Sequence record: PX309103.1
Direction: 5' to 3' (one strand)
From: a phage
Length of the DNA: 39,129 bases
In this document: piece by piece, positions 1 through 39,129 of the stretch
Layout: each line of letters begins with the position of its first letter
Position numbering within the stretch: position 1 is the first letter of the stretch
Program-made: the position numbers and the translations under genes
The notes under the pieces: model-generated
The model's input: the letters and a program-made list of their open reading frames with translations, nothing else
The model's database searches: none
Told to the model about the DNA's origin: nothing

Positions 1-180
1 TCTCACAGTTCAAGAACCTCAAGTCTCCCCATAGGCCCTCTTTAAGTCCAGACCAAAGGCCCTACCCCCAGTCTATCATAAGGTTGGACCGATGGTCAAG
101 ACTTCAGGTCGACGATAGGTCTAGGCTATGGCTGGAGGTTAGACGATAGGTAGGGGCTATAGGTCTGTCTCTGTGTCTCT
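1..180. repeat. Left direct terminal repeat (180 bp), identical to 38950-39129
   Basis: Read directly: bases 1-180 are identical to the last 180 bases of the window; T7-like genomes carry such terminal redundancy. Confidence 0.95.
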
Positions 181-5516: not shown

Positions 5517-5541
5517 ACCCTAAACTATCACTATAGGATTA
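5517..5541 (+). promoter_or_regulatory. Phage RNAP promoter (phi1.1-like)
   Basis: TAAACTATCACTATAGGATT. Confidence 0.8.
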
Positions 5542-5546
5542 GACTC

Positions 5547-5573
5547 AAGGTCATGACTCAAAGTCGTGGCCTT
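5547..5573 (+). promoter_or_regulatory. Conserved hairpin, RNase III-site-like (R1.1 position)
   Basis: AAGGUCAUGAC / GUCGUGGCCUU 11-bp stem with G-U pairs and UCAAA loop; one of 3 copies of the same element. Confidence 0.6.
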
Positions 5574-5611
5574 CATGATTAACCCTAACTCATTCAATCA
5601 GGAGCTACACC

Positions 5612-8033: not shown

Positions 8034-8192
8034 ATGACTGACGTAGAGAAGAAGTACATCGTGGAGCTTGAGGGTCACATTCAGTCCTTCGAGGTTCCGG
8101 TGTACGCAAAGTCTCTTGAAGAGGCTACCCTGAAGTCCCAAGAGTATGAGGACGCTGGGTTTGTGGTCGGACGGATTCGTCCTGAGACCTAA
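8034..8192 (+). CDS. Gp2-like inhibitor of host RNA polymerase (52 aa)
   Basis: [17 protein letters not shown]...[10 protein letters not shown] matches recalled T7 Gp2. Confidence 0.8.
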
Positions 8193-8210
8193 ACTATCAC
8201 TGTAGGACAG
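8188..8210 (+). promoter_or_regulatory. Phage RNAP promoter variant (phi2.5-like)
   Basis: TAAACTATCACTGTAGGACA; one mismatch in the TATA core. Confidence 0.55.
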
Positions 8211-8250: not shown

Positions 8251-8949
8251 ATGGCTAAAGAGCAACTGAAGACTTTCACCACTCCGGTAGCTGGTATCGT
8301 TGAGCCTTACGCATGGCTTAACAAAGCAGACACCAAGTTCAACGAGCGTGGTGAACACAAAGTCAACCTGACATTCGACCTGAGCAACCCGAAGGTCCGT
8401 AAGATGATTGATGTCTTACAGAAGATTCACGACGATGCGTATGCGAAAGCACTTGCAGACCACGAGAAGAACCCGCCTCAGGTTCAGCGTGGCAAGAAGC
8501 CTATTGAACCACGAGAAGGCGACATGCCGTGGATTGAGAATGGTGATGGTACTGTTACCCTGAAGTTTAAATGCTTCGCGTCTTACCTGAAGGATGGTAA
8601 GTCAGAGCCTATCATATTACGGTTCTACGACACCGATGCTAAGTTAATCCGTGACGTCCCGAATATTGGCGCTGGCTCAAAGCTGAAGGTCAAGTTTAAA
8701 GTCCTGCCGTTCAAGTGGAACGCTGCGACTGGTGCAAGCGTTAAGCTCCAGCTTGAGTCCTGCCTTCTGGTAGAACTGAAGGAGTGGAAAGGCGATGGTG
8801 CAGGTGGCGATGGTGGTTGGGGTGATGATGAAGACCTCGGTACCGGCTACAAAGCGTCAACCGATGGTGACTTCGGGTCTGATGACTTCGGTGACGATGG
8901 TTCCGAAGGTGGTTCCGAGTCCAACTCTGGTGGCGATTACGACTTCTAA
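8251..8949 (+). CDS. Single-stranded DNA-binding protein (gp2.5 family)
   Basis: 232 aa; conserved blocks GKKPIEPREGDMPW, SVKLQLES; acidic C-terminal tail ending DYDF. Confidence 0.93.
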   Translation: MAKEQLKTFTTPVAGIVEPYAWLNKADTKFNERGEHKVNLTFDLSNPKVRKMIDVLQKIHDDAYAKALADHEKNPPQVQRGKKPIEPREGDMPWIENGDGTVTLKFKCFASYLKDGKSEPIILRFYDTDAKLIRDVPNIGAGSKLKVKFKVLPFKWNAATGASVKLQLESCLLVELKEWKGDGAGGDGGWGDDEDLGTGYKASTDGDFGSDDFGDDGSEGGSESNSGGDYDF

Positions 8950-9401
8950 TGGCCCAATGGTCTGCAAAACGGGGGCACTCTGTGGGTGCCTACCGCTCTG
9001 GACTTGAAGCCAAGAACCAGCAGTGGCTGGAACAGAACGGCGTCAAAGCGGAGTACGAAAGCCATTATATCAACTATGTGATTCCGGCTTCCGACCACAA
9101 GTACACACCAGATTTTATTCTTCCTAACGGTATCATCGTGGAGACCAAAGGTATCTTCGATAGTGATGACCGTAAGAAGCACCTTCTGGTACGAGAACAG
9201 CACCCAGAGTTAGACATCCGGTTCGTGTTCTCAAGTTCCCGCTCCAAGCTATACAAAGGGTCTCCGACCACGTATGGTGCATGGTGCGAAAAGAACGGCT
9301 ATAAGTATGCCGATAAGTTCATCCCGGTTGAGTGGCTACGAGAGGAGACTGTACGTCTGCCTTCAGGTATCCTCATCCCCAAGAAGAAAGGAGTTAAGTG
9401 A
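8949..9401 (+). CDS. Endonuclease I, Holliday-junction resolvase (gp3 family)
   Basis: 150 aa; YTPDFILPNGIIVETKG...DDRKKHLLVREQHPELDIRFVFSSSRSKLYKGSPT matches T7 gp3. Confidence 0.93.
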   Translation: MAQWSAKRGHSVGAYRSGLEAKNQQWLEQNGVKAEYESHYINYVIPASDHKYTPDFILPNGIIVETKGIFDSDDRKKHLLVREQHPELDIRFVFSSSRSKLYKGSPTTYGAWCEKNGYKYADKFIPVEWLREETVRLPSGILIPKKKGVK

Positions 9402-9871
9402 TGACTCAGAAATATAGACTTAAGGTTGACCGCCACGGGTGGCCTAAAGGTGCTATCGTTACGAAATGTGCGAAAGACCCTGTACCATCATCTGGACTTG
9501 TTCTGGTGGAATCCACTGAGCGTGGCACCTACAAACACGGAGCAGCAGGTCATAACACTCAGCCTGACGGTATGTGGGGGGCGTGGGTTTTAAAAGAAAA
9601 TCTTGAGGAAATTGTAGAGGATAAACCTCAAGTCCTGCCAGCCTCAAGTGTCCCTCCTGTCACCGTTAAACGTGAAGTCCTGACCATCGACAAGATTGGT
9701 GTAGGCCAGACGTTCATCGTCCACGGAAAGCCTGAAGAAGTTTACGTGAAGATTAGCAACTCACACGTCTTCAACCATAAGCGTCTCCAGATGCACACCA
9801 CGGACGCACAGCGCTTCACCCAGCACCTGAATCTAGTGGTCGTAGAATTGGTGGTGTACAATGGTAAGTAA
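9398..9871 (+). CDS. Hypothetical protein (157 aa) inserted between endonuclease I and lysozyme
   Basis: ORF overlaps both neighbours (ATGA at start); I recognise no motif. Confidence 0.55.
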   Translation: MMTQKYRLKVDRHGWPKGAIVTKCAKDPVPSSGLVLVESTERGTYKHGAAGHNTQPDGMWGAWVLKENLEEIVEDKPQVLPASSVPPVTVKREVLTIDKIGVGQTFIVHGKPEEVYVKISNSHVFNHKRLQMHTTDAQRFTQHLNLVVVELVVYNGK

Positions 9872-10319
9872 GGTACAGTTCAACCCACGGTCCCGGACTG
9901 ACGCTATCTTCGTTCACTGTTCGGCTACCAAGCCAGATATGGACATCGGGGTAGAGACCATCCGTATGTGGCACAAGCAGCAAGGCTGGCTGGACGTAGG
10001 CTACCACTTTATCATCAAACGTGATGGCACTGTGGAAGAGGGTCGCCCGGTCAATGTCGTAGGGTCACACGTTAAGGACTGGAACTCACGGTCTGTAGGC
10101 GTCTGCCTTGTAGGCGGAATCAACGCTAAGGGTCAGTTTGAAGCTAACTTCACTCCAGCCCAGATGAACTCCCTGCGCAACAAGCTGGCTGACCTGAAGG
10201 TCCTGTATCCTCAGGCAGAAATCAAAGCACACCATGACGTAGCACCTAAGGCGTGTCCAAGTTTCGACTTGCAACGCTGGCTGTCTACCAATGAACTGGT
10301 CACTTCCGACCGTGGTTAA
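9861..10319 (+). CDS. Lysozyme / N-acetylmuramoyl-L-alanine amidase (gp3.5 family)
   Basis: 152 aa; TDAIFVHCSATKP, GYHFIIKRDGTVEEGR, APKACPSFDL, ELVTSDRG match T7 lysozyme. Confidence 0.95.
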   Translation: MVSKVQFNPRSRTDAIFVHCSATKPDMDIGVETIRMWHKQQGWLDVGYHFIIKRDGTVEEGRPVNVVGSHVKDWNSRSVGVCLVGGINAKGQFEANFTPAQMNSLRNKLADLKVLYPQAEIKAHHDVAPKACPSFDLQRWLSTNELVTSDRG

Positions 10320-10343: not shown

Positions 10344-10559
10344 ATGATTAAACTTATTGAATTTCTTGGTCGTCTGGTGGTGCGTGGTTATCGTCGTGCT
10401 GCGGTACTGGAACGAAAGGTAGAAAAGAAGACTGCTGACAGTGCGGCTGATGCTGCTGCTCTGGCTGACAAGCTAACAATAGCGTCACTGGAAGCTGGCA
10501 TGAAGGCACGTCAAGCTGACACCAAAGCTGACCAGTTGGCTCAGTTCTTCAAAGCCTAA
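10344..10559 (+). CDS. Hypothetical Ala-rich protein (71 aa)
   Basis: ORF with strong RBS AAAGGAGA. Confidence 0.5.
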   Translation: MIKLIEFLGRLVVRGYRRAAVLERKVEKKTADSAADAAALADKLTIASLEAGMKARQADTKADQLAQFFKA

Positions 10560-10577
10560 ACTATCACCTTAGGGATG
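10555..10577 (+). promoter_or_regulatory. Phage RNAP promoter variant upstream of gene 4
   Basis: TAAACTATCACCTTAGGGAT; two mismatches to the consensus core. Confidence 0.45.
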
Positions 10578-12339: not shown

Positions 12340-12504
12340 TTGCTAAGAAAACTTAAAGCTCGCTACCATCGGTTCATGTACAAATGGTGGAGCGATGAAG
12401 CAACCTGCCTGTCAAGCATTATAGGAGAACAGAGGTTCGACTCTAAGGCATGGAAGAAAGCTAACCGGAAGTTTATGTATCACTTCTTGCGTACAGACTT
12501 CTAG
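12340..12504 (+). CDS. Hypothetical small basic protein (54 aa), TTG start
   Basis: AGGAGG 6 nt upstream of TTG at 12340; the ORF-track 12307 start lies inside gene 4. Confidence 0.4.
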
Positions 12505-12514
12505 GTCTAGACTC

Positions 12515-12539
12515 AAGGTCATTCACATCGAGTGGCCTT
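12515..12539 (+). promoter_or_regulatory. Conserved hairpin, RNase III-site-like (R4.7 position)
   Basis: AAGGUCAUUC / GAGUGGCCUU stem; same flanks (AGACTCAAGGTC ... TTTATGATTAGAC) as the 5547 and 35956 copies. Confidence 0.6.
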
Positions 12540-12567
12540 TATGATTAGACTAAACGGAGGATTAACC

Positions 12568-32159: not shown

Positions 32160-35100
32160 ATGTCCACGATTACACAATTCCCTTCAGGAAACACTCAGTA
32201 CAGGATTGAGTTCGACTACCTAGCCAGAACGTTTGTTGTTGTTACGCTGGTGAATAGCTCTAACCCTACCCTGAACCGTGTACTGGAAGTTGGTCGAGAT
32301 TACCGATTCCTTAATCCAACGATGATTGAGATGTTGGTTGACCAATCAGGTTTCGACATCGTTCGTATTCACCGTCAGACTGGAACTGACTTAGTGGTAG
32401 ACTTCAGGAATGGCTCAGTGTTGACAGCTAGTGACCTGACCAATTCAGAGCTTCAGGCTATCCATATTGCAGAAGAAGGTCGAGACCAAACGGTTGACTT
32501 AGCGAAGGAATATGCCGATGCTGCTAGTAGCTCTGCTGGCAACGCTAAGGATAGCGAGGACGAAGCACGACGAATCGCTGAGAGTATCAGGGAAGCTGGT
32601 CTAATTGGCTATATTACCCGTCGCTCCTTCGAGAAAGGCTACAACGTTACAACATGGAGCGAGGTCCTGCTATGGGAAGAGGATGGTGATTATTACCGCT
32701 GGGATGGTACGCTTCCAAAGAACGTTCCTGCTGGTTCAACTCCTGAAACTTCCGGTGGGATTGGATTAGGTGCGTGGGTTAGTGTTGGTGATGCTGCTTT
32801 AAGAAGTCAGATTTCAAACCCGGAAGGGGCAATACTCTACCCTGAATTACATAGAGCACGCTGGCTTGATGAAAAAGATGTCCGTGGTTGGGGTGCTAAA
32901 GGGGATGGTGTCACTGATGATACAGCAGCGTTAACGAGCGCATTAAACGACACACCGGTTGGACAAAGGCTTAATGGCAATGGGAAGACATATAAGGTCA
33001 CATCCCTGCCTGACATTAGTCGCTTCATCAACACTCGTTTCGTTTATGAGCGCATTCCCGGACAACCTCTTTATTATGTCTCTGAAGAATTTGTTCAGGG
33101 TGAGCTGTTCAAGATAACGGACACCCCTTATTACAATGCGTGGCCTCAGGATAAAGCGTTCGTATATGAGAATGTGATATATGCACCTTACATGGGTAGC
33201 GATCGTCATGGTGTTAGCCGTCTTCACGTATCATGGGTTAAGTCTGGTGATGATGGTCAAACATGGTCTACTCCAGAGTGGTTAACTGATCTGCATCCAG
33301 ATTACCCTACAGTGAACTATCATTGTATGAGTATGGGTGTATGTCGCAACCGTCTGTTTGCCATGATTGAAACACGTACTTTAGCCAAGAACGCATTAAC
33401 CAATTGTGCATTGTGGGATCGCCCCATGTCTCGTAGCCTGCATCTCACTGGTGGTATTACGAAGGCAGCAAATCAGCGATATGCAACAATCCATGTACCT
33501 GATCACGGGCTGTTCGTGGGTGACTTTGTTAACTTCTCTAACTCTGCGGTAACAGGTGTGTCAGGTGATATGAAGGTTGCAACGGTAATAGATAAGGACA
33601 GCTTCACGGTTCTTACACCTAACCAGCAGGACTCAGATTTGAATAACGCTGGAAAGAACTGGCATATGGGTACTTCATTCCATAAATCGCCATGGCGTAA
33701 GACAGATCTTGGCTTAATTCCTCGTGTGACTGAAGTTCATAGCTTTTCTGCTATTGATAACAATGGCTTTGTTATGGGTTATCACCAAGGTGATGTAGCT
33801 CCACGCGAAGTTGGACTATTCTACTTCCCTAACGCTTTCGATAATCCGGCTAACTATGTTCGTCGTCAGATACCTTCAGAGTATGAGCCAGATGCCTCAG
33901 AACCCTGCATCAAGTATTACGATGGTGTATTGTACCTCATCACCCGTGGCACTAGGAGCGATAGACTAGGTAGCTCTTTGCATCGTAGTAGAGACATAGG
34001 TCAGACTTGGGAGTCACTGAGATTTCCACATAATGTTCATCATACTACATTGCCTTTTGCTAAAGTAGGGGATGACCTTATTATGTTTGGTTCAGAACGT
34101 GCAGAAAATGAATGGGAAGCAGGTGCACCAGATGATCGTTACAAGGCATCTTATCCTCGCACCTTCTATGCACGCTTGAATGTAAACAATTGGAATGCAG
34201 ATGGTATTGAATGGGTTAACATCACTGACCAGATTTATCAGGGCGGAATAGTTAACTCAGGTGTAGGTGTTGGTTCGGTAGTTGTGAAGGATAGTTACAT
34301 CTACTACATGTTTGGTGGAGAGGACCATTTTAACCCATGGACATATGGAGATAACTCAGCGAGGGATCCATTCAAATCAGACGGTCATCCCTCAGATTTG
34401 TATTGCTACAAAATGAAGATTGGCCCAGACAATCGTGTTTCAAGGGATTTCAGGTATGGTGCTGTACCTAACAGAGCTGTTCCCGTGTTTTTTGATACGA
34501 ATGGGATTCGCACTGTTCCTGCGCCAATGGAATTTACAGGGGATTTGGGTTTAGGTCATGTGACCATTAGAGCCAGCACCAGTAGTAACATTCGCTCTGA
34601 AGTTTTAATGGAAGGTGAATATGGGTTTATCGGAAAATCTATACCGACTGATAACCCGGCAGGGCAGCGCATCATGTTTTGCGGGGGTGAAGGCACCAGT
34701 GCAACGACTGGCGCACAGATTACGCTTTATGGTGCAAATAACACCGACTCAAGGCGAATAGTTTACAACGGAGATGAGCATCTATTTCAGAGTGCTGATG
34801 TTAAGCCTTATAACGATAACGTCACTGCGCTTGGTGGGCCTAGAAACCGTTTCACCACTGCATACCTCGGAAGTAACCCTATTGTTACTTCTAACGGGGA
34901 GAGGAAAACAGAGCCGGTAGTTTTTGATGATGCTTTCCTTGATGCCTGGAGTGACGTTCACTACATCATGTACCAGTGGTTAGATGCTGTTCAACTGAAA
35001 GGCAATGATGCTCGTATTCACTTCGGGGTTATTGCTCAGCAAATTCGTGATGTATTCATTGCACATGGGCTGATGGACGAAAACAGTACGAATTGTCGTT

Positions 35101-35354
35101 ATGCTGTTCTGTGCTATGACAAGTATCCACGGATGACCGATACGGTATTTTCGCACAATGAAATCATTGAACACACTGACGAGGAGGGTAATGTCACCAC
35201 TACGGAAGAACCTGTATACACCGAGGTGGTTATTCACGAAGAGGGTGAGGAGTGGGGTGTTCGGCCTGACGGAATTTTCTTTGCTGAAGCCGCTTATCAG
35301 AGAAGAAAACTGGAAAGAATCGAAGCCAGACTTTCTGCTCTTGAACAGAAGTAA
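32160..35354 (+). CDS. Tailspike endosialidase (endo-N-acetylneuraminidase) with gp17-like N-terminal adaptor and C-terminal intramolecular chaperone domain
   Basis: 1064 aa; N-terminus FDYLARTFVVVTL resembles T7 gp17 N-domain; central region with GDGVTDDT; C-terminal domain typical of auto-cleaving chaperone domains; recalled resemblance to phage K1F endoNF. Confidence 0.9.
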   Translation: MSTITQFPSGNTQYRIEFDYLARTFVVVTLVNSSNPTLNRVLEVGRDYRFLNPTMIEMLVDQSGFDIVRIHRQTGTDLVVDFRNGSVLTASDLTNSELQAIHIAEEGRDQTVDLAKEYADAASSSAGNAKDSEDEARRIAESIREAGLIGYITRRSFEKGYNVTTWSEVLLWEEDGDYYRWDGTLPKNVPAGSTPETSGGIGLGAWVSVGDAALRSQISNPEGAILYPELHRARWLDEKDVRGWGAKGDGVTDDTAALTSALNDTPVGQRLNGNGKTYKVTSLPDISRFINTRFVYERIPGQPLYYVSEEFVQGELFKITDTPYYNAWPQDKAFVYENVIYAPYMGSDRHGVSRLHVSWVKSGDDGQTWSTPEWLTDLHPDYPTVNYHCMSMGVCRNRLFAMIETRTLAKNALTNCALWDRPMSRSLHLTGGITKAANQRYATIHVPDHGLFVGDFVNFSNSAVTGVSGDMKVATVIDKDSFTVLTPNQQDSDLNNAGKNWHMGTSFHKSPWRKTDLGLIPRVTEVHSFSAIDNNGFVMGYHQGDVAPREVGLFYFPNAFDNPANYVRRQIPSEYEPDASEPCIKYYDGVLYLITRGTRSDRLGSSLHRSRDIGQTWESLRFPHNVHHTTLPFAKVGDDLIMFGSERAENEWEAGAPDDRYKASYPRTFYARLNVNNWNADGIEWVNITDQIYQGGIVNSGVGVGSVVVKDSYIYYMFGGEDHFNPWTYGDNSARDPFKSDGHPSDLYCYKMKIGPDNRVSRDFRYGAVPNRAVPVFFDTNGIRTVPAPMEFTGDLGLGHVTIRASTSSNIRSEVLMEGEYGFIGKSIPTDNPAGQRIMFCGGEGTSATTGAQITLYGANNTDSRRIVYNGDEHLFQSADVKPYNDNVTALGGPRNRFTTAYLGSNPIVTSNGERKTEPVVFDDAFLDAWSDVHYIMYQWLDAVQLKGNDARIHFGVIAQQIRDVFIAHGLMDENSTNCRYAVLCYDKYPRMTDTVFSHNEIIEHTDEEGNVTTTEEPVYTEVVIHEEGEEWGVRPDGIFFAEAAYQRRKLERIEARLSALEQK

Positions 35355-35684: not shown

Positions 35685-35944
35685 CGCAGATGGACTTAGA
35701 GAAGTTCCTCTTGATGCTTGATACTGAGCGTGCTCGACTTATGCTGCAAGACTTGCGGGATGACACTAAGCGTTCACCTCAGCTCTATAACGCCATTGAG
35801 AAGCTGCTTGCTCGTCACAACTTTGTGTTAAGTAAGGTGTCTATGGACGAGAAGACGCTGGCTGATATGGAGGCCCTGAACGCAGAGTACGATAAGGTGC
35901 TTTCAGCGACTGAGGATAATGACACAGGGTATGGTGTTCAATAA
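35681..35944 (+). CDS. Terminase small subunit / DNA maturation protein A (gp18 family)
   Basis: RSPQLYNAIEKLLARH matches T7 gp18. Confidence 0.88.
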   Translation: MTQMDLEKFLLMLDTERARLMLQDLRDDTKRSPQLYNAIEKLLARHNFVLSKVSMDEKTLADMEALNAEYDKVLSATEDNDTGYGVQ

Positions 35945-35955
35945 GTGTTAGACTC

Positions 35956-35982
35956 AAGGTCATTACTATATGTAGTGGCCTT
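35956..35982 (+). promoter_or_regulatory. Conserved hairpin, RNase III-site-like (R18.5 position)
   Basis: AAGGUCAUUAC / GUAGUGGCCUU stem with UAUAU loop; third copy of the conserved element. Confidence 0.6.
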
Positions 35983-36045
35983 TATGGTTAACACTAACTA
36001 GTGGAGGCGACTCTACGTGAAATCTGATAAACCGGGAGGGCAACT

Positions 36046-38949: not shown

Positions 38950-39129
38950 TCTCACAGTTCAAGAACCTCAAGTCTCCCCATAGGCCCTCTTTAAGTCCAG
39001 ACCAAAGGCCCTACCCCCAGTCTATCATAAGGTTGGACCGATGGTCAAGACTTCAGGTCGACGATAGGTCTAGGCTATGGCTGGAGGTTAGACGATAGGT
39101 AGGGGCTATAGGTCTGTCTCTGTGTCTCT
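38950..39129. repeat. Right direct terminal repeat (180 bp), identical to 1-180
   Basis: Read directly from sequence. Confidence 0.95.

What the first reader, a model, noticed from the sequence alone, without database searches (positions are those of the whole stretch)
9398..9871. Unknown 157-aa gene inserted between endonuclease I and lysozyme
In T7, gene 3 is followed directly by gene 3.5. Here a 157-aa ORF is wedged between them, overlapping both neighbours, which suggests it is co-translated in the class II operon. I recognise no motif in it, so it is a candidate accessory protein.
Basis: inference. Interest (0 to 1): 0.6.

Follow-up and report, generated by a model that had tools for sequence, protein, structure and literature searches.

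The report
K1F gp3.2 orthologue, modular accessory protein
The ORF is a real, conserved gene (the orthologue of phage K1F gene 3.2, function unknown) that K1F-like phages carry between their endonuclease and lysozyme genes; it joins a near-invariant 70-residue core to an exchangeable, fast-evolving SH3-like front domain, which suggests a host-interaction adaptor but not a housekeeping protein.

Summary
An ORF at 9398/9401-9871 lies between endonuclease I (gene 3) and the amidase (gene 3.5) and overlaps both. It sits in one phage-promoter unit (promoters at 8186 and 10553). T7, T3, K11 and gh-1 have nothing in this position.

It is not new. It is the orthologue of K1F gp3.2 (CR44b 3.01; phrog_16385), annotated since 2005-06 and never characterised. 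The conserved start is ATG 9401, giving 156 aa.

The family is tiny: 16 clusters at 50% identity among 1.84 billion proteins. It is confined to K1F-like T7 relatives and always lies in this slot.

The protein has two parts:
- **C-terminal core** (aa 87-156): almost invariant, dN/dS 0.13. It exists alone as a 74-aa protein in many phages.

No Pfam, NCBIfam, PDB or literature link to any function was found.

My best reading, which is inferred, is a dispensable middle-gene adaptor: a constant core plus a swappable recognition domain aimed at variable host factors. Interest is moderate.

The parts
9401..9871 (+). gene 3.2 CDS (156 aa plus TAA stop), orthologue of K1F gp3.2
   Evidence: ORF listing. 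The ATG start is conserved in all 27 loci compared, including those without the upstream GTG. phrog_16385 matches at E 7e-94 over residues 1-156. The closest records are 92-94% identical in nucleotides.
9387..9393 (+). Shine-Dalgarno AAAGGAG, 7 nt upstream of the ATG, inside the end of gene 3
   Evidence: Sequence. AAAGGAG is conserved at the same spacing in all relatives.
9401..9616 (+). N-terminal module 'type A' (aa 1-72): predicted SH3-like five-stranded barrel with hypervariable loops
9407..9625 (+). Exchangeable cassette: the stretch with no DNA similarity to Vec13 or SHAK9454, although both flanks are 95-98% identical
   Evidence: Pairwise blastn shows homology ending at codon 2 and resuming at nucleotide 220-226 of the gene. 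Megablast partial hits cover query 223/229-474 only.
9617..9658 (+). Pro/Ser-rich linker (EDKPQVLPASSVPP), the right-hand recombination junction of the cassette
   Evidence: Low pLDDT. It is conserved in all long forms and absent from the 74-aa forms.
9659..9868 (+). Conserved C-terminal core (aa 87-156), equal to phrog_15211; invariant motif Y..(x3)SNSH.F(x5)QMH.T(x3)RF; basic (pI 9.5)
   Evidence: phrog_15211 matches at E 5e-40. Invariant columns include the 44-46%-identical Providencia-type relatives. dN/dS is 0.13. pI. The structure model is low confidence and beta-rich.
8949..9401 (+). gene 3, endonuclease I (upstream neighbour); its stop shares one base with the gene 3.2 ATG
   Evidence: Annotated as endonuclease I in the homologous records. 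Pfam Phage_endo_I lies upstream of the distant relative P0144.
9861..10319 (+). gene 3.5, N-acetylmuramoyl-L-alanine amidase (downstream neighbour); its start lies 11 nt inside gene 3.2
   Evidence: Annotations. Amidase_2 lies downstream of P0144.
8186..8207 (+). Phage RNA polymerase promoter (phi2.5 equivalent) that opens the 2.5-3-3.2-3.5-3.7 unit
   Evidence: One member of an 11-copy repeat family, CTAAACTATCACTATAGGR.
10553..10574 (+). Next phage promoter, upstream of gene 4; closes the unit
   Evidence: There is no terminator-like site between 8000 and 11000.

Best explanation
The ORF is the orthologue of K1F gene 3.2. It is a genuine, translationally coupled middle (class II) gene found only in K1F-like T7 relatives. 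Its product is a small soluble protein with two parts. The first is a near-invariant, basic, beta-rich 70-residue C-terminal core, which is the ancestral and sufficient unit. The second is an optional N-terminal SH3-like module joined to the core by a Pro/Ser linker. I propose that it works as an adaptor. The constant core would dock onto, or act on, a conserved partner, either a phage DNA-metabolism or lysis protein or a conserved host protein. The exchangeable N module, with its hypervariable loops, would recognise a variable host factor such as a strain-specific defence or takeover target. On this view the gene is dispensable for basic growth but modulates fitness on particular hosts. SHOWN: the gene is real and under selection; the synteny; the two-part architecture; in-frame cassette exchange; the SH3-like fold of the N module; the uneven selection along the protein. 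INFERRED: that it binds proteins, that the target is a host factor, and that it is non-essential.
Against: There is no experimental or homology-based link to any partner or activity. The C-terminal core, which must carry the essential function, could not be modelled with confidence (pLDDT 35-60). The SH3-like fold is generic, the Foldseek E-values are not significant (0.1-0.3), and no SH3 sequence family matches. Formal positive selection was not demonstrated: whole-loop pN/pS is 0.49. The value near 1 comes from sites chosen partly by their variability, so it is circular. Relaxed constraint on a dispensable appendage explains the same data. Module type does not track capsule specificity: K1 phages carry type A (K1F and this window) or type C (PhiNW-B1). 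Expression was not measured.
Confidence: 0.4

Rival explanations
1. DNA-metabolism accessory factor. gp3.2 would be a small basic nucleic-acid-binding protein made of SH3-like or Sso7d-like barrels. It would work with its operon neighbours (gp2.5 SSB, gp3 junction resolvase, gp4 primase-helicase) in replication, recombination or host DNA breakdown.
Against: N modules range from net charge -6.5 to +1.8, which is hard to reconcile with a common DNA-binding role. T7, T3, K11 and gh-1 replicate without the gene. No DNA-binding family matches. The core fold is unknown.
Confidence: 0.15
2. Lysis or lysozyme partner. gp3.2 would modulate the amidase gp3.5 encoded immediately downstream. It could act as a separate SH3b/GW-like cell-wall-binding subunit, or as a regulator of gp3.5's second role, inhibition of the phage RNA polymerase.
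Against: The conserved part is the core, not the SH3-like module, and many phages lack the module entirely. No SH3b or GW Pfam family matches. PH1061 has an HNH gene, and PSTCR2 two extra ORFs, between gene 3.2 and the amidase. T7-type amidases act without a binding subunit (established knowledge). Adjacency may simply be inherited.
Confidence: 0.12
3. The constant core is the only functional part. On this view the N-terminal modules are selectively near-neutral passengers, junk appendages picked up by illegitimate recombination at a hot spot, with no recognition role.
For: Short forms and internal deletions are common. Overall N-module dN/dS is 0.5 and approaches 1 for some pairs. Frameshifted and truncated variants occur in metagenomes: P0133, P0138 and P0141-P0143. 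The slot also accepts HNH genes and other ORFs.
Against: The framework of the type A module is conserved: strand pN/pS is 0.26, with invariant GWP.GT.VT.C, LVE and QP.GMWGA motifs across 105 distinct sequences. The module folds with pLDDT >90. The modules always stay in frame and can be stacked. These points indicate that a folded domain is being maintained.
Confidence: 0.2
4. Spurious ORF, or an ORF kept only as a translational-coupling spacer that delivers ribosomes to gene 3.5.
For: It has a tight overlap at both ends and no known domain.
Against: The core amino-acid sequence is nearly invariant while synonymous sites vary freely (dN/dS 0.13 at dS 0.94). There is a full-length PHROG match. 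The strong RBS is conserved. T7 couples gene 3 directly to gene 3.5 without a spacer.
Confidence: 0.02

Closest known systems
Escherichia phage K1F gp3.2 (CAJ29361.1; 'unknown' ORF in DQ111067), Citrobacter phage CR44b 3.01, EcoDS1 gp3.2; PHROG phrog_16385
   Same: Same position between genes 3 and 3.5, same length class (156-163 aa) and same two-part architecture. Overall amino-acid identity is 75-78%, and the closest records are 92% identical.
   Different: The N-terminal module is only 59% identical to that of K1F, whereas the core is almost identical. None of these proteins has an assigned function, so membership names the gene but does not explain it.
Short gp3.2 of Cronobacter phage Dev2 and Citrobacter phages SH3-SH5 (74 aa; phrog_15211)
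   Same: Homologous to residues 87-156 of the window protein (about 80% identity). The position is the same, with the same overlap onto the amidase start.
   Different: These forms lack the N-terminal SH3-like module and the linker altogether.
SH3 / SH3-like small beta-barrel domains (eukaryotic SH3, PsaE, KOW, KorB-C)
   Different: There is no sequence-family membership and the distal loop is long, at 20 residues. The canonical proline-peptide pocket residues were not established. The similarity is at fold level only and does not specify a function.
Small host-directed class I/II proteins of T7 (gp0.3 Ocr, gp2, gp4.5, gp5.5, gp5.7, gp5.9)
   Same: It shares the genomic lifestyle: a small, non-structural, lineage-variable early or middle protein embedded among DNA-metabolism genes. 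This rests on established knowledge of T7 and is an analogy only.
   Different: There is no sequence or fold relationship. T7 has no counterpart at this position. No target is known.

Membership tests
Kayfunavirus gp3.2 family (phrog_16385 / phrog_15211) | Full-length profile match | tested here: met
   phrog_16385 matches at E 7e-94 over residues 1-156 of 157 profile positions. phrog_15211 matches at E 5e-40 over residues 87-156.
Kayfunavirus gp3.2 family (phrog_16385 / phrog_15211) | Position between endonuclease I (gene 3) and amidase (gene 3.5), overlapping the amidase start | tested here: met
   Window. The arrangement is the same in all 26 related loci and in the annotated records.
Kayfunavirus gp3.2 family (phrog_16385 / phrog_15211) | Invariant core motif SNSH.F ... 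QMH.T ... RF | tested here: met
   Window residues 119-139 carry every invariant column of alignment A3, which includes 44-64% identical relatives.
SH3-like barrel fold (N-terminal module) | Five-stranded small beta-barrel superposable on SH3 domains | tested here: met
SH3 domain sequence families (Pfam SH3_1/2/9, bacterial SH3_3/4/5, GW) | Significant profile match | tested here: not met
   There are no Pfam families even at E<=10, no NCBIfam hit and no PDB sequence hit.
SH3 domain (functional sense) | Ligand (Pro-rich peptide or cell-wall) binding pocket | not testable with these tools
   This needs binding assays or a complex structure. Only the location of the variable loops is known.
   T7, T3, K11 and gh-1 have no gene at this site. 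An exhaustive phmmer search finds only this family. There is no paralogue in the window.
Homing / HNH / 'endonuclease VII' (label seen on one database record) | Nuclease domain match | tested here: not met
   There is no Pfam hit. The 'endonuclease VII' label in OR594184 belongs to a feature table whose coordinates are offset from the sequence. At that place the DNA encodes endonuclease I, gp3.2 and the amidase in the normal order.

The most novel reading that the evidence does not exclude
gp3.2 may be a phage-encoded 'binder on a scaffold' system. An invariant effector or anchor domain would be fused to a cassette-exchangeable SH3-like recognition domain whose loops diversify like those of an immune receptor. 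A population of K1F-like phages could then retarget one conserved activity to rapidly changing host immunity or takeover targets. This would be a new class of modular counter-defence adaptor.
Probability: 0.15. Interest if true: 0.7.

Novelty: new member of a known kind. Interest (0 to 1): 0.38.

Why it matters
As a gene, it is ordinary: one more copy of an already catalogued hypothetical protein of K1F-like phages. Three features make it worth a modest follow-up:
- It is one of the few lineage-specific genes in an otherwise T7-like DNA-metabolism block.
- Its architecture, a constant core plus an in-frame exchangeable and hypervariable SH3-like module, is the pattern expected of a protein in conflict with variable host factors.
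- K1F-like phages are being developed against K1 E. coli.

If the N module sets strain-specific fitness, it would be a host-range determinant that acts after adsorption, and a natural scaffold for engineering.

Tried and rejected
- **Sequence and structure searches on the full protein.** Pfam, NCBIfam and PDB sequence searches found nothing, nor did a PDB search with a core profile.
- **Other N modules.** Pfam and PHROG scans of the other N modules and of the Providencia-type relatives gave only the two gp3.2 PHROGs.
- **Distant relatives.** An exhaustive phmmer search of 1.84e9 representatives found only 16 clusters, all of this family. A profile search with divergent cores added only P0144, which has the same synteny.
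- **C-terminal core structure.** Two AlphaFold runs, on the full protein and on the core with the most diverse alignment available, both gave pLDDT below 60 for the core. No fold search was attempted on it.
- **Foldseek.** Searches against PDB and BFVD gave nothing significant, with best E-values of 0.1-0.3.
- **Internal duplication.** hhalign of the N-module profile against the core profile showed no relationship (probability 0.1%).
- **Paralogues in the window.** None was found.
- **'Endonuclease VII' lead from record OR594184.** Rejected as an artefact of offset annotation.
- **Overlapping RNA element.** No Rfam family or tRNA was found. Free synonymous variation also argues against one.
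- **Fusion to gp3.5 by frameshifting.** A -1 shift cannot produce it, because gene 3.5 is in the +1 frame relative to gene 3.2. No slippery site was examined further.
- **Literature.** No paper discusses the function of gp3.2. The K1F genome paper is not in the library.
- **Link to K1 specificity.** Rejected. K1 phages carry different modules, and the family occurs in phages of many genera.

Full report
**What the window is.**
The 39,129-base window is a complete genome of a K1F-like T7 relative (genus Kayfunavirus, Studiervirinae).
- It has 180-bp direct terminal repeats (1-180 and 38950-39129) and eleven copies of a phage-type promoter, CTAAACTATCACTATAGGR.
- It is about 95-96% identical to Escherichia phages pO2 and phiYIO1-1 over the first 25 kb.
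- Its 1064-aa tail spike is an endosialidase.

**Checking the observation.**
- The ORF is there: 9398..9871 on the + strand, 157 codons from GTG.
- In all 27 homologous loci an ATG sits one codon further in. Several of them have AAGAAATG upstream with no GTG. The conserved start is therefore ATG 9401, giving 156 aa.
- A strong Shine-Dalgarno sequence, AAAGGAG, lies at 9387-9393, 7 nt upstream.
- The endonuclease I stop (TGA 9399-9401) shares one base with this ATG. The amidase ATG (9861) lies 11 nt inside the end of the ORF.
- The nearest phage promoters are at 8186 and 10553. No promoter or terminator-like site lies between them. Genes 2.5, 3, 3.2, 3.5 and 3.7 therefore form one class II unit.
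- In T7, gene 3 ends and gene 3.5 starts at the same base. T3, Klebsiella phage K11 and Pseudomonas phage gh-1 also have nothing between the two genes.

**Identity.**
- The ORF is not new. It is annotated as gp3.2 in K1F (AM084414), as 'unknown' in the other K1F record, as 3.01 in Citrobacter phage CR44b and as gp3.2 in EcoDS1.
- It matches phrog_16385 from end to end (E 7e-94). Its C-terminal 70 residues match phrog_15211 (E 5e-40). Both PHROGs are of unknown function.
- The closest records are 94% identical in DNA and 92% in protein.
- Pfam, NCBIfam and PDB sequence searches return nothing, even at permissive thresholds.
- The only paper in the library that mentions phage gp3.2 merely lists a 74-aa Dev2 homologue in a table.

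**How wide the family is.**
- An exhaustive phmmer scan of 1.84 billion cluster representatives found 16 clusters. All belong to this family.
- tblastn finds the family in 221 of 50,697 phage records. All are roughly 39-41 kb T7-like genomes, from phages of Escherichia, Salmonella, Enterobacter, Citrobacter, Klebsiella, Cronobacter and others.
- The most distant relatives are 44-46% identical in the core: Providencia phage PSTCR2 and the metagenomic protein P0144. They still lie directly after Phage_endo_I and before Amidase_2.

**Anatomy.**
Alignments show two very different halves.
- **C-terminal core.** Residues 87-156 are almost invariant, with the motif Y...SNSH.F.....QMH.T...RF conserved even in the distant relatives. 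This core exists on its own as a 74-76-aa protein in many phages, including Dev2, SH3-SH5, GA2A and many Salmonella phages.
- **Linker and N-terminal module.** In other phages a Pro/Ser-rich linker (PQVLPASSVPP) joins the core to an N-terminal module.
- **Module types.** I found at least six mutually unrelated types:
  - type A, in the window, K1F and CR44b;
  - type B, in SHAK9454 and phiYIO1-1;
  - type C, in Vec13 and PhiNW-B1;
  - other types in P0136, CR8/P0137, P0140 and PSTCR2.
- **Other arrangements.** There are 226-aa forms with two stacked modules (P0109, P0131). Internal deletions remove most of the module in P0121, P0124 and P0125.
- **Cassette exchange.** Between the window and Vec13, the DNA is 97.6% identical up to codon 2 of gene 3.2 and 95.1% identical from nucleotide 226 onwards. 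It is unalignable in between. This is a clean in-frame cassette replacement at window positions 9407-9625.
- **Recency of the exchange.** The closest whole-genome relative, phiYIO1-1, carries type B rather than type A.
- **Modules elsewhere.** Modules A, B and C (56, 10 and 27 records) occur nowhere else in the phage collection.
- **Internal relationships.** The N and C halves show no profile similarity to each other. The window has no paralogue of either.

**Structure.**
- With a 53-sequence alignment, AlphaFold2 predicts residues 1-72 with pLDDT 88-95 as a five-stranded barrel.
- Foldseek agrees in kind, but not significantly.
- The core stayed below pLDDT 60 in two attempts. It is beta-rich with one short helix. 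Its fold is unknown.

**Selection.**
- In the core, dN/dS is 0.13 with dS near 0.9 across 26 distinct sequences. This is a protein under strong constraint. It is neither a spacer ORF nor an overlapping nucleotide signal.
- The type A module has an overall dN/dS of 0.52, ranging from 0.36 to 1.03 between pairs.
- Sequence entropy is concentrated at residues 9-12, 28-33, 43, 51 and 64-67, which lie in loops between the predicted strands. The framework (GWP.GT.VT.C, LVE, YKHG, QP.GMWGAW) is fixed across 105 distinct sequences.
- Using strand and loop classes defined only from the model, pN/pS is 0.26 in strands and 0.49 in loops.
- The value of about 1.0 for the hypervariable subset is partly circular, because those sites were chosen with knowledge of their variability.
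- The data therefore show a maintained scaffold with very fast loops. They do not formally prove positive selection.
- N modules differ widely in charge, from net -6.5 to +1.8. The core is basic, with pI 9.5.

**Interpretation.**
- What is shown: this is a real, lineage-restricted, middle-operon gene. Its essential unit is a small conserved core, and its N-terminal SH3-like domain is optional, exchangeable and fast-evolving.
- What I infer (confidence about 0.4): it works as an adaptor. The core would bind or act on a conserved partner. The module would recognise a variable, probably host-encoded, factor. The gene would then be dispensable in general but important on particular strains, in the manner of other small T7 early and middle proteins that target host functions.
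- Rival 1: a basic DNA-metabolism accessory factor acting with gp2.5, gp3 and gp4 (0.15).
- Rival 2: a partner of the adjacent amidase, either as a separate wall-binding subunit or as a modulator of its RNA-polymerase-inhibiting role (0.12).
- Rival 3: a functional core with near-neutral passenger modules (0.2).
- Rival 4: a spurious or purely coupling ORF (0.02). The selection data effectively exclude this one.
- Module type does not follow capsule specificity. K1 phages carry type A (K1F and this window, which are only 59% identical in the module) or type C (PhiNW-B1).

**Comparison with what is known, and novelty.**
- The ORF is a member of the gp3.2 family by every test applied: profile match, synteny and motif.
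- Its N module has an SH3-like fold but belongs to no SH3 sequence family. Ligand binding could not be tested.
- An 'endonuclease VII' label on one record proved to be a feature table offset from its sequence.
- I rate it a new member of a known, uncharacterised kind.
- The cassette architecture does not appear in the searched literature. It is the only element that raises interest above routine.

**Verdict.**
Interest is 0.38. The most novel reading still open is a constant effector fused to a diversifying, swappable SH3-scaffold binder used against variable host defences. I give it about 0.15 probability, and it would merit about 0.7 interest if true.

Noticed in passing
window 1-180 and 38950-39129: There are exact 180-bp direct terminal repeats, so the window is a complete linear T7-like genome.
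   Followed up: partly
window 2440, 5517, 7245, 8186, 10553, 16593, 19420, 20408, 24813, 32089, 38348 (22-nt sites, + strand): There are eleven copies of a phage RNA-polymerase promoter-like sequence, CTAAACTATCACTATAGGR. The copy at 10553 is the most divergent (…CACCTTAGGG).
   Followed up: partly
window 5534-5590, 12502-12547, 35943-35999: A conserved repeat of about 50 nt (TTAGACTCAAGGTCAT…GTGGCCTTTATGATTAAC) occurs at three sites. Each copy folds into a hairpin with an internal loop (z about -3.3 against shuffles). They look like T7-type RNase III processing sites lying after gene 1, within the gene 4-5 region and before gene 18/19. No Rfam family matches them.
   Followed up: partly
L001 (OR594184.1, phage vB_EcoM_SHAK9454) 1-3252: The feature table of this UNVERIFIED record is offset from its sequence. 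'Primase/helicase', 'endonuclease VII' and 'DNA polymerase I' labels lie over DNA that actually encodes endonuclease I, gp3.2 and the amidase. Such labels could mislead automated annotation transfer.
   Followed up: yes
L029 (OQ680138.1, phage PH1061) 1793-2164; L028 (MW057854.1, Providencia phage PSTCR2) 1705-2278: The slot between gene 3.2 and the amidase accepts further insertions: an HNH endonuclease gene in PH1061, and two extra small ORFs (117 and 79 aa) in PSTCR2. The gene 3 to gene 3.5 junction therefore looks like a hot spot for accessory DNA.
   Followed up: partly
proteins P0133, P0138, P0141-P0143 (metagenomic relatives): These are frameshifted or truncated versions of the type A gene. 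Some are N-module-only fragments with out-of-frame tails, and one has a scrambled N-terminus that rejoins the frame at residue 59. They may be sequencing errors or pseudogenisation, which would fit a dispensable N module.
   Followed up: no
window 8795-9007 (+): A 70-codon ORF in another frame overlaps the acidic tail of gp2.5 and the start of gene 3. K1F annotates an equivalent 'gp2.55' at the same place (L003 772-987). Whether it is expressed was not examined.
   Followed up: no
type A loci WIN, L003-L008, L036, L038-L041: For the same genome pairs, synonymous divergence is higher in the N module (pS 0.5-0.6) than in the C-terminal core (pS 0.33). Either the N-module alleles are older than their genomic backbone, or the core is homogenised by recombination.
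   Followed up: no
window 32160-35354 (+): The 1064-aa tail spike has the full endosialidase domain set (End_N_terminal, End_beta_propel, End_beta_barrel, End_tail_spike, Peptidase_S74). The phage is therefore predicted to be specific for the K1 capsule, like K1F.
   Followed up: yes
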